DNA of 64,000 nucleotides from an uncultured Actinomycetes bacterium (lineage in GTDB: Bacteria; Actinomycetota; Actinomycetes; S36-B12; CAIYMF01), in assembly GCA_963753075.1 (NCBI GenBank), contig CAVWAR010000003.1, positions 8,299 to 72,298 of the forward strand, written 5' to 3'. The position numbers were made by a program, and so were the translations under genes. The notes beneath the pieces were generated by a model, which worked only from the letters and a program-made list of their open reading frames with translations, ran no database searches and was not told where the DNA came from. This document shows, one piece after another, positions 28,099-29,599 of the stretch (the stretch's first letter is position 1; each line of letters opens with the position of its first letter).

Positions 28099-29588
28099 AT
28101 TTTCAGCCCGGGACGGGCCGCCCCGCCAGGGGCGAAGGATGACTCTGATGTCAAGAGGCGGGTTGCAGCGTTCTTGACCTCGTGGTCTTCCGTGCCGTGG
28201 TGGTGGTGGGTAGCGTCTGGTTCGCGGGTCCGGGTTGTGGCTGATCCGAAGTGCCGGTGCGCGGGTGTGAGCCGGCCGCGCTGGATTGAAGTGACGCCCC
28301 GCTGTGCCCTCCCGGACCCGCGTCCAGGTCTGCTGCTGCAGCCGTCTTGGCGTCGTTGACGAGCTGGCGGTAGAGGGCGTCGGAGATGCGTCGCTTGAGG
28401 CAACGCATGGCTTCGGCCTTGGTCTTGCCCGCGGCGAGCTTGCGCCGGTAGTAGGCCCGGCCTTCGGTGTCGTGGCGCAGTTGGCTGGTCGCGGCGATGT
28501 GGATCATGTGGTTCGTCCGCCGGTTCCCCGCCCGGGACAGCCGGTGGCGCACGATCTCTCCGGAGGACGCTTCGATGGGTGCGGTGCCGGTCCACGACGC
28601 GTACCGGTTGCGGTCGGTGAACCGGGCGACGTCGCCGGTGTCGGCCAGGGTGCGGGCGGCCACGACGGGGCCGACACCGGGCAAGTCCATCAGGGTCGAC
28701 CCGGTCGCGGCGACCATCGCCTTGAGCTCGCGGGTGATGGCCTTGGCCTTCTGCTCGATCGTCACGAGCTCGGCGATCTGTTCGGCGGCGAGCCGGCGGC
28801 GGGTCTTCCCGGCCAGGTCGCGCAGCTTGACCGTTGCCAGGATCCGCTTGGCCTGGGCGGAGCTGATGTTGCGCTTGGACTGTCCCGGAATGAGTTCGGA
28901 GAGCAGCCGGTGGACTCGGTTCACGCACTGGATCCGGGCCCTGGTCAGCTCGGCGCGCCGGTCGACCAGCAACCTGAGGGCCTCGAGCTGGGCGTCGTAG
29001 GCCAGCACCCGCAGGCCCGTGGTGCGCACCGCGACCACCGCAACCGCGTGCGCGTCGTGCGGGTCGGTCTTGCGGTTGTGGCCGGTGTCGAACATCCGCG
29101 CCCGGGCCGACAGCTTCGCCGTCACATCCACCACCACCTCCCGTCCGCGAGCAACCGCTGCGCCAGCGCGCGGCCGGCGCCGTTGCTGCCCTCCACTGCC
29201 CATACCCGGTCCGGATAGGACGCCACGTGCCTTCGCATCGCCGCGTACCCGGCCTTGTCCGTGGCGAACCGGCCGGTCGCCAACACCGTCTCCCGGTCGT
29301 CGACCACCTCGATGGTCGCCGACAGCTTGTGGGGATCGACCCCGATGAACACTCTCGACATGAGCTTCGCCTTCCCGCCGTTGTCGGTTGGTGGACGCCG
29401 GGTGGGCACTGCTACTACGAGCTGGGCAAACCTCTCTTCAGCCACACACCGGCACGGTGCCCGGCGGGAACGCAGACCGAAGTTGAGCCACACCGGTCAC
29501 GCTGGTGGGCAGCCGCATGGAGAGCGTCCCGCCGAACACCTGGACCGAGTCTGGCCAGACACCGGCCCTGAAGGAAATCGTCTAGTAG
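28099..29588 (-). mobile_element. IS110-family element no. 2
   Basis: Left end ...ATCGTCTAGTAG (29577-29588) abuts CCGCCTATCGC. The other end begins ATTTTCAGCCCGGG at 28099, right after GGTAGCCC. 227-nt non-coding left end (29362-29588). Confidence 0.65.
28151..29361 (-). pseudogene. IS110-family transposase, one frameshift in a G/C run near 29140
   Basis: MSRVFIGVDPHKLSATIEVVDD...VWAVEGSNGAGRALAQRLLADG in the frame of ORF 29122..29493. EVVVDVTAKLSARAR...LPGVGPVVAARTLADTGDV... in the frame of ORF 28151..29203. GGGG appears shortened to GGG at the junction. Confidence 0.8.
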
Positions 29589-29599
29589 CCGCCTATCGC
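29589..29599 (+). repeat. short GC-rich motif half-site flanking IS110 no. 2
   Basis: CCGCCTATCGC, the same core as 15737-15747 and 23000-23010. Confidence 0.5.

What the first reader, a model, noticed from the sequence alone, without database searches (positions are those of the whole stretch)
28099..29599. IS110 copy inserted into a member of the short-motif family; both IS110 elements share the end CTACTAGACGAT and should encode bridge RNAs
Seen: IS110 no. 2 is flanked by GGTAGCCC (28091-28098) and CCGCCTATCGC (29589-29599). Together these match halves of the motif copy at 50865-50881 (GGTAGCCCGATAGGCGG), with the second half in inverted orientation, as expected if the target was a palindromic member. 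The two otherwise different IS110 elements share the same 12-nt transposase-proximal terminus (26719-26730 and 29577-29588). IS630 also sits in a motif copy, at the TA of CCGCCTA (9513-9514). Established: IS110-family recombinases are guided by a bridge RNA from a non-coding end and often target repetitive sequences. Inference: the 227-nt non-coding end 29362-29588 (81-120 nt in copy 1) encodes such an RNA, programmed for this motif. The segment GCTCGTAGTAGCAG within it, near 29385 by my count from the start codon, is complementary to the CTACTA terminus.
Basis: partly seen in the sequence, partly recalled or inferred. Interest (0 to 1): 0.6.

Follow-up and report, generated by a model that had tools for sequence, protein, structure and literature searches.

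The report
Dead IS110 element with bridge RNA
This is a decayed copy of an RNA-guided (IS110-family) jumping gene sitting in a short 25-base genomic repeat that its own guide ("bridge") RNA is programmed to recognise.

Summary
The quoted strings are all at the stated coordinates, but two key assignments are wrong.

**Extent and state.** IS110 no.2 spans 28143-29588 (minus strand), not 28099-29588. Its transposase carries a 1-nt deletion near 29142. Its right end lacks the last 6 nt.

**Nested elements.**
- A second element, IS110 no.1, is inserted into that right end.
- GGTAGCCC (28091-28098) lies inside the left end of IS110 no.1. It is not target DNA.
- The "shared" 12-mer at 26719-26730 lies inside an IS3 element (26696-27987). 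That IS3 splits the left end of IS110 no.1.

**What holds.** The main inference is right.
- 72 distinct insertions of this IS family, in this genome and in other Actinomycetota, sit at ...SGCGG|IS|CG-N4-GACGC.
- This is a 25-nt repeat, GCGYC-N5-SGCGG·CG-N4-GACGC, with about 30 IS-free copies in this genome.
- The orthologous site in a related genome is an intact copy of the repeat.

**Bridge RNA.** The 227-nt left end folds into two loops. Their guide segments covary with the left flank, the right flank, the right end and the left-end start, as in IS621.

**Verdict.** New member of a known kind. Side points are IS-in-IS targeting and unequal donor and target cores.

The parts
29589..29601 (-). 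Left half of the target repeat M (GTGCGATAGGCGG, read on the minus strand), about 35 nt downstream of the stop of a trmO/tsaA-like gene (29629-30111).
   Evidence: The orthologous site in a same-genus genome is an intact M, GTGCGAGAAGCGG|CGCCATGACGC (L184). trmO assignment.
28143..29588 (-). IS110 no.2: 1446 bp, lacking the last 6 nt (GGGWGC) of its right end. A dead copy.
   Evidence: Extent from six other genomic copies at 83-91% identity and about 70 relatives in other genomes. Pfam PF01548 + PF02371.
28151..29361 (-). Transposase pseudogene. A 1-nt deletion near 29141-29143, relative to both intact copies (C15, C13a), shifts the frame inside the DEDD domain.
   Evidence: The intact C15 copy scores 180.9 bits against NF033542 (cut-off 140).
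29362..29588 (-). Left-end non-coding region, the bridge RNA gene (LE position n = window 29589 - n).
   Evidence: The left end is conserved from its first base in 76 loci. Consensus fold has two multi-loop domains.
29512..29520 (-). Left target guide (LTG) CCAUGCGGC, same sense as left flank NNNGCGG|C. It sits on the 5' side of the target-binding loop.
   Evidence: 119 matches at variable positions against 94.9 +/- 6.2 in shuffles. CCGG and TGGG flank variants are matched by guide variants.
29477..29483 (-). Right target guide (RTG) ACUUCGG, the reverse complement of the right flank CGNNNN. It predicts the right target CGAAGT for this copy.
   Evidence: 173/248 variable positions match against 112 +/- 6.4 in shuffles. 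C10:10862 carries ...GGGTGC|CGAAGTGACGC.
29456..29540 (-). Target-binding loop domain: basal stem 29528-29540 / 29456-29468, and apical stem GCCCACC / GGUGUGGC.
   Evidence: alignment columns 52-64 pair with 128-141. Compensatory changes at four pairs (9, 13, 5 and 9 sequences).
29429..29437 (-). Left donor guide (LDG). The family consensus is AGAGGGGWC; here it is decayed to AGAGAGGUU.
   Evidence: RE-3 (W) against the guide: A/A 43, T/T 22, mismatched 3. RE-9: G/G 49, A/A 18, mismatched 1.
29411..29418 (-). Right donor guide (RDG) GUAGUAGC, the reverse complement of G+CTACTA.
   Evidence: the left-end start variants CTACTA, CTGCTA, CTGTTA and CTATTA are matched by GTAGTA, GTAGCA, GTAACA and GTAATA.
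27988..28142 (-). Distal 155 nt of the left end of IS110 no.1. It begins TCATCC directly after ...CATCAGAG of IS110 no.2.
   Evidence: The uninterrupted copy in G027 (L082). Guide against left flank in 72 relatives: 336/360 matches against 119 +/- 9.5 in shuffles.
25333..26695 (-). Rest of IS110 no.1: proximal left end, intact 414-428 aa transposase (25363-26649) and right end ...CATTTTCGGACTAG.
   Evidence: NF033542 at 252.4 bits.
26696..27987 (+). IS3-family element inserted into the donor guide (G|GACTAG) of IS110 no.1. Its orfB is frameshifted. It contains the 12-mer ATCGTCTAGTAG at 26719-26730.

Best explanation
**What it is.** Window 28143-29588 (minus strand) is a defective copy of an IS110-group insertion sequence.

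**How the family moves (mechanism inferred by analogy with IS621).** The roughly 228-nt left end is transcribed into a bridge RNA with two loops.
- The target-binding loop carries an LTG (NNNGCGGC, same sense as the left flank) and an RTG (NNNNCGG, complementary to the right flank).
- Together these specify a 25-nt extragenic repeat, GCGYC-N5-SGCGG·CG-N4-GACGC, which I call M.
- The donor-binding loop carries an LDG (AGAGGGGWC, same sense as the right end) and an RDG (GUAGUAGC, complementary to the left-end start CTACTA).
- These specify the joined right end / left end of the excised element.
- The DEDD/Ser recombinase then exchanges strands at the C between GCGG and G.

**History of this copy.**
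1. It landed in the M copy downstream of a trmO-like gene.
2. A different IS110 (no.1), whose guide AACAGAG matches ...ACAGAG of no.2's right end, inserted between CAGAG and GGGWGC.
3. An IS3 then inserted into no.1's donor guide.
4. No.2 also acquired a frameshift and two substitutions in its LDG.

**Shown and not shown.** Shown: boundaries, target, folds and guide-DNA covariation. Inferred: that the RNA is made and guides recombination. Both IS110 copies in the window are now inactive.
For: **Family membership**
- Pfam PF01548 + PF02371.
- NCBIfam 'IS110 family RNA-guided transposase' above its cut-off for both proteins.
- The Tnp domain aligns to IS621 (8WT6) with its Ser-Gly kept.

**Boundaries**
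-.

**Target**
- 70 of 72 distinct insertions have GG|CT at the left junction. 63 of 67 have GC|CG at the right junction, followed by N4-GACGC.
- About 30 IS-free M copies are in this genome.
- The orthologous site is intact in a related genome.

**Guides**
- RTG: 173/248 against 112 +/- 6.4 in shuffles.
- LTG: 119/310 against 94.9 +/- 6.2.
- LDG covaries at two positions, 0.95-0.98 same-sense.
- RDG is compensated across four left-end haplotypes.

**Fold**
- Basal stem, internal loop and apical stem, with compensatory pairs. The layout matches IS621 as described in PMC11208160 and PMC11208158.

**Nesting**
- G027 carries the uninterrupted IS110 no.1 between CAGAG and GGGAGC·CGATAGGACGC, in a different M copy.
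Against: - There are no expression data for the RNA.
- No Rfam family matches it, and no published covariance model was available to me.
- The single-sequence fold is no more stable than shuffles (z = -0.34).
- LTG covariation is modest beyond -4.
- The donor-binding loop has no clear apical stem between LDG and RDG. The LDG also matches the right end only if 1-2 nt (G, or GC) are skipped.
- Donor and target share only one base (C) at the crossover, unlike the identical CT cores of IS621.
- The elements compared are related to each other, so the permutation tests overstate independence.
Confidence: 0.9

Rival explanations
1. One reading: the element spans 28099-29588 and split a palindromic motif copy into GGTAGCCC and an inverted CGATAGGCGG. 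The two IS110 elements share a 12-nt terminus.
For: The strings exist, and GGTAGCCCGATAGGCGG exists at 50865.
Against: - No other copy of the IS includes 28099-28142.
- That stretch is colinear with the left end of IS110 no.1 in G027.
- The family's right flank is CG-N4-GACGC in 63 of 67 cases.
- The 12-mer lies in an IS3 that has an independent copy.
Confidence: 0.02
2. The half-motifs next to the IS are terminal sequences carried by the element, not a pre-existing target.
For: They are seen next to nearly every copy.
Against: - About 30 uninterrupted copies of the motif exist without any IS.
- An intact motif sits at the orthologous position in G003, G009 and G026.
- The N5 and N4 positions differ between insertions and match each element's guides.
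Confidence: 0.02
3. Target choice is made by the protein alone. The conserved left end is only a leader or promoter, and the apparent guide-flank matches come from shared ancestry of copies that were duplicated together with their flanks.
For: The left end is strongly conserved, and some copies share flanks (C2 and C13a).
Against: - After removing duplicate flanks, 62-72 distinct sites remain.
- Guide variants track flank variants at different loci and in different genera.
- In the IS110 no.1 family, five fully variable flank positions are copied in the RNA segment in 93% of cases.
Confidence: 0.05

Closest known systems
IS621 (E. coli) and its bridge RNA (Durrant et al. 2024, PMC11208160; Hiraizumi et al. 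2024, PMC11208158)
   Same: - DEDD + Tnp(Ser) recombinase.
- Long left end upstream of the gene that encodes a two-loop RNA.
- The 5' guide of each loop has the same sense as the left target or donor. The 3' guide is complementary to the right target or donor.
- A -35-like TTGACA in the right end.
- The target is a repeated extragenic sequence.
   Different: - Only about 30% identity, and only in the Tnp domain.
- The target is a 25-nt actinobacterial repeat rather than an E. coli REP.
- Donor and target share one base, not an identical CT dinucleotide.
- The RTG is 6-7 nt.
- No clear apical stem between LDG and RDG.
ISPpu9/ISPpu10 and other REP-targeting IS110 elements (Tobes & Pareja 2006, cited in PMC11208160; ISPpu10 preprint 10.64898/2026.03.19.712850)
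   Same: IS110-family elements that insert at one fixed position in a short repeated intergenic sequence.
   Different: A different host phylum and a different repeat. The repeat here shows no significantly stable hairpin.
IS4321/IS5075 (IS1111 group), which target the terminal repeats of Tn21-family transposons (Partridge & Hall 2003, cited in PMC11208160)
   Same: An IS110-family element aimed at the end of another mobile element, as IS110 no.1 is aimed at the right end of IS110 no.2.
   Different: Here the attacker belongs to the IS110 group with a left-end RNA, and the victim is itself an IS110 element.

Membership tests
IS110 family (IS110 group) insertion sequence | DEDD RuvC-like N-terminal domain plus Tnp domain with catalytic Ser | tested here: met
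   PF01548 + PF02371 in both elements. NF033542 at 180.9 and 252.4 bits against a cut-off of 140. Ser-Gly aligned with the IS621 S241 region. The window copy of no.2 is frameshifted.
IS110 family (IS110 group) insertion sequence | Long non-coding left end, very short right end, no terminal inverted repeats, no multi-base target duplication | tested here: met
   Left end 227 nt. The right end is about 20 nt past the stop. The ends CTACTAG... and ...GGGGWGC are not inverted repeats. Occupied minus empty site leaves no duplication.
Bridge RNA (IS621 type) | Two loops, each with a 5' guide of the same sense as the left target or donor and a 3' guide complementary to the right target or donor | tested here: met
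   LTG, RTG, LDG and RDG were located and shown to covary with the DNA. Fold.
Bridge RNA (IS621 type) | Identical core dinucleotide in donor and target, included in all four pairings | tested here: not met
   Donor ...GWGC·CTAC, target ...GCGG·CGNN. Only the C is shared. IS110 no.1 does have an identical core, AG.
Bridge RNA (IS621 type) | The RNA is transcribed and is required for recombination | not testable with these tools
   No expression data were examined, and both window copies are defective.
Bridge RNA (IS621 type) | Match to a curated covariance model | tested here: inconclusive
   No Rfam 15 family matches the left end at the gathering or the E-value threshold. I could not establish whether Rfam 15 holds a bridge RNA model.
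Integron attC site (as identity of the target repeat) | Integron integrase in the genome, and a stable imperfect hairpin with R''/R' boxes | tested here: not met
   No TIGR02249 hit above its cut-off. Fold z-scores run from -1.0 to +0.1. No GTTRRRY/RYYYAAC pair by inspection.

The most novel reading that the evidence does not exclude
In the IS110 no.2 family, and in a third family (IS110 no.3, C10:65083), the 2-nt cores of donor and target differ: CC against GC, and TC against AC.

In the no.2 family:
- 70 of 72 left junctions read GG|CT (target-type first core base) and 63 of 67 right junctions read GC|CG (donor-type). The four copies of no.3 examined show the same pattern.
- This is the genotype expected if only the top strand is transferred and replication fixes it.
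- The reciprocal genotype, expected in half the progeny after double-strand exchange, is never seen.
- The RTG (..CGG) and RDG (..AGC) are complementary to the partner's core, that is, to the state after exchange.

If this reading holds, natural insertion junctions in Actinomycetota give independent in vivo support for the top-strand-transfer / copy-and-paste models proposed in 2025-26 preprints. They also point to a built-in directionality device.
Probability: 0.4. Interest if true: 0.55.

Novelty: new member of a known kind. Interest (0 to 1): 0.35.

Why it matters
**For annotation**
- It fixes the boundaries of a four-deep nest of insertion sequences.
- It shows that the short-motif family is the programmed landing site of at least two IS110 families.

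**For the bridge-recombinase field**
- It adds two actinobacterial families, each with about 70 members, whose guides and natural targets are fully mapped.
- One family is aimed at the right end of the other.
- It offers a natural test of strand-transfer models, because donor and target cores differ.

None of this changes the known mechanism.

Tried and rejected
- **Rfam.** Nothing at gathering threshold over the whole window. At the E-value threshold over 27950-29700, the only hit is a sub-threshold ncrMT1302 match inside the coding region.
- **Single-sequence fold of the left end.** Not distinguishable from shuffles. Only the alignment fold was informative.
- **First guess for the LTG (CGGCGG at LE 55-60).** Rejected. 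It is the 5' strand of the basal stem.
- **Right end finishing at CAGAG with target GCGG·GGGWGCCG.** Rejected. No such empty site exists in the genome, whereas GCGG·CG-N4-GACGC is common.
- **Target repeat as an integron attC site.** Rejected.
- **Shared 12-mer as a functional link between IS3 and IS110.** Rejected as unnecessary.
- **Complementary donor guide for the left-end start in the IS110 no.1 family.** No contiguous or covarying segment found. Unresolved.
- **IS630 target reconstruction.** Not possible, because that copy is truncated.

Full report
**Observation**

The window is C3:8299-72298 of a 3.85-Mb, 69% G+C actinobacterial genome. Its relatives are Intrasporangiaceae/Dermatophilaceae.

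Region 23.7-29.6 kb is a nest of insertion sequences:
- a DDE_Tnp_1_4 element;
- IS110 no.1 (25333-26695 plus 27988-28142, minus strand);
- an IS3 (26696-27987);
- IS110 no.2 (28143-29588, minus strand).

**Boundaries**

BLAST against the genome finds six further copies of IS110 no.2 at 83-91% identity. All align from 28143 to 29588 and none further.

A same-genus genome, G027, holds IS110 no.1 with an identical protein and an uninterrupted left end. That left end reads TCATCCTTCGCCCC...GGGCTACC...GCACGAG·GACTAGATTCG (L082). The window has exactly this sequence, with the IS3 inserted between GAG and GAC. So 27988-28142 is the outer part of the left end of IS110 no.1.

The IS3 has a 96% identical copy with unrelated flanks at C17:1075233-1076532. 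The 12-mer at 26719-26730 lies 24 nt inside this IS3, and the C17 copy reads CGTCTATGTAGG there. Exact 12-mers shared between IS110 no.2 and the rest of this GC-rich window occur at 88 of about 1435 positions. The 'shared terminus' is thus a chance match to an IS3, not a common IS110 end. The two IS110 transposases share only about 29% identity over 119 residues.

**State of the copy**

- The transposase of no.2 has a 1-nt deletion near 29142 relative to both intact copies (C15, C13a).
- Its right end stops at ...CTTGACATCAGAG and lacks the family's final GGGWGC.
- Its left donor guide carries two substitutions.

**Target**

A search of one genome per species returned 80 loci encoding relatives. 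The left end is conserved from its very first base. Across 72 distinct insertions:
- The left junction is GG|CT in 70.
- The right junction is GC|CG in 63 of 67, followed by N4-GACGC.

Joining the flanks gives GCGYC-N5-SGCGG·CG-N4-GACGC. This 25-nt repeat, M, occurs about 30 times in the genome without any IS. The copies cluster on C3, C8, C14 and the start of C17.

The window copy sits after GTGCGATAGGCGG, about 35 nt downstream of a trmO-like gene. At the orthologous place, related genomes carry an intact M, for example GTGCGAGAAGCGG·CGCCATGACGC in L184. A 93% identical paralogous flank on C10 carries a different IS110 (no.3), which is inserted 9 nt further on in the same M, after CG-N4-GAC.

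M shows no significantly stable fold, and the genome has no integron integrase. Its function is unknown.

**Bridge RNA**

I followed the IS621 model. In it, the 5' guide of each loop has the same sense as the left target or donor, and the 3' guide is complementary to the right target or donor (PMC11208160; PMC11208158). I looked for covariation between left-end alignment columns and the flanks. Below, LE n means position n of the left end (window coordinate 29589 - n), and RE-n means the nth base from the right end.

Four segments stand out:
- **LDG (LE 152-160), AGAGGGGWC.** It copies RE -10 to -3. The W position matches in 65 of 68 cases and RE-9 in 67 of 68.
- **RTG (LE 106-112), NNNNCGG.** It is the reverse complement of the right flank CGNNNN: 173 of 248 variable positions against 112 +/- 6.4 in shuffles.
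- **LTG (LE 69-77), NNNGCGGC.** It copies the left flank: 119 of 310 against 94.9 +/- 6.2. Rare CCGG and TGGG flanks are matched by CCGG and UGGG guides.
- **RDG (LE 171-178), GUAGUAGC.** It is complementary to the left-end start. The four left-end haplotypes CTACTA, CTGCTA, CTGTTA and CTATTA are each compensated.

The consensus fold places LTG and RTG on the two sides of an internal loop. That loop lies between a basal stem with compensatory changes and an apical stem. LDG and RDG lie in a second domain closed by another stem.

The RTG of the window copy predicts the right target CGAAGT. C10:10862 carries an orphan junction, [48 nt of IS110 no.1 right end]·GGGTGC·CGAAGTGACGC. This is probably the displaced right junction of this nest.

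**IS110 no.1**

In 72 relatives, a 7-nt segment of the left end (28040-28046 in the window, AACAGAG) copies the left flank plus an AG core. It matches at 336 of 360 variable positions, against 119 +/- 9.5 in shuffles. GGACTAG copies the right end.

In the window, G027, G014 and several metagenome loci, the flank is ...TTGACAWCAGAG, the right end of IS110 no.2. In G027 the other side continues GGGAGC·CGATAGGACGC. The G027 host copy of no.2 is a different subtype, in a different M copy. These are therefore independent hits on the same position.

In this family the segment complementary to the right target lies 5' of the apical hairpin, and the segment identical to the left target lies 3' of it. 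This is the reverse of IS621. I did not find the second donor guide. In the window, the IS3 splits the donor guide of IS110 no.1, so its RNA gene is broken although its transposase ORF is intact.

**Cores**

For no.2, the donor junction is ...GGGGWGC·CTACTAG and the target is ...GCGG·CGNNNN. Only one base, C, is shared. IS621 cleaves the top strand 3' of the core. On that geometry the cores are CC (donor) and GC (target). The left junctions carry GC and the right junctions carry CC, with the few exceptions counted above and none of the reciprocal type. The same holds for the copies of no.3, with TC against AC.

The reciprocal genotype is never seen. The RTG ends in G and the RDG ends in C, which are complementary to the partner's core. 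This fits the top-strand-transfer and copy-and-paste models in two preprints. It remains an inference.

**Verdict**

The core idea is right: an IS110 element sits in a member of the motif family and has a bridge RNA programmed for that motif. This holds for the whole family. The details of boundary, flank, palindrome and shared terminus are wrong. The element is an ordinary, and here dead, member of a known kind.

Noticed in passing
window 25333-28142; L082/L191/L192 (G027); L085, L101-L103: IS110 no.1 is inserted at the same position (CAGAG^GGGWGC) in the right end of different IS110 no.2 copies in several genomes. Its 7-nt guide reads A[A/U]CAGAG. It is thus an IS110 programmed against another IS110, and it splits the sequence that the victim's donor guide recognises.
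   Followed up: yes
IS110 no.1 left end, window 28040-28071; alignment of 72 relatives: In this family the guide order in the target loop is the reverse of IS621. The segment complementary to the right target is 5' of the apical hairpin, and the segment identical to the left target is 3' of it. The core is AG (CT on the other strand). No second donor guide was found.
   Followed up: partly
junctions of 72 IS110 no.2-family insertions and of IS110 no.3 (C10:65083, C16:2223, C17:3886): Donor and target cores differ (CC against GC; TC against AC). Junctions carry the top-strand genotype (70 of 72 left, 63 of 67 right in no.2), and the reciprocal genotype is never seen. RTG and RDG end in bases complementary to the partner's core.
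   Followed up: partly
genome C10:65083-66427 (also C16:879-2223, C17:3886-5231, C2:1015358-1016705): A third IS110 family, with a 353-aa transposase, inserts 9 nt further along in the same 25-nt repeat, after CG-N4-GAC. One copy occupies the paralogue of the window's own target site.
   Followed up: partly
window 265-290, 2859-2885, 15728-15751, 19401-19425, 22991-23016, 30338-30363, 34230-34255 and others: The 25-nt repeat GCGYC-N5-SGCGG·CG-N4-GACGC is conserved across Micrococcales and Propionibacteriales, since it flanks the IS in many genera. It sits just after stop codons, has no stable fold and has no known function. Some copies share a further conserved stretch of about 35 nt upstream.
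   Followed up: partly
genome C10:10862-10926: An orphan junction: the last 48 nt of IS110 no.1, then GGGTGC, then CGAAGTGACGC. It matches the right target predicted by the RTG of the window copy and the W=T of its LDG. The missing right junction of the window's nest seems to have been moved there.
   Followed up: partly
window 26696-27987: The IS3 copy shows no target duplication when compared with the uninterrupted G027 sequence. It lacks the first T of its inverted repeat, and its orfB is frameshifted near 27570.
   Followed up: partly
window 28235-28331 (+): A sub-threshold Rfam match to the Mycobacterium sRNA ncrMT1302 (39.8 bits, gathering score 45), antisense to the 3' part of the IS110 no.2 transposase gene.
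   Followed up: no
window 9515-10561: The IS630 copy is cut off at its 3' end at 10561 and runs straight into a trehalose-phosphatase gene. The motif next to its left end (CGATAGGCCG) is only a 1-mismatch partial, so 'IS630 sits in a motif copy' cannot be established.
   Followed up: partly
L084, L097 (G136): Relatives of IS110 no.1 sit in arrays of a tandem 20-nt unit, AGAAACAGCACTCCGGTTAG, at GGTTAG^AG. Their guide reads GGGTTAG.
   Followed up: no
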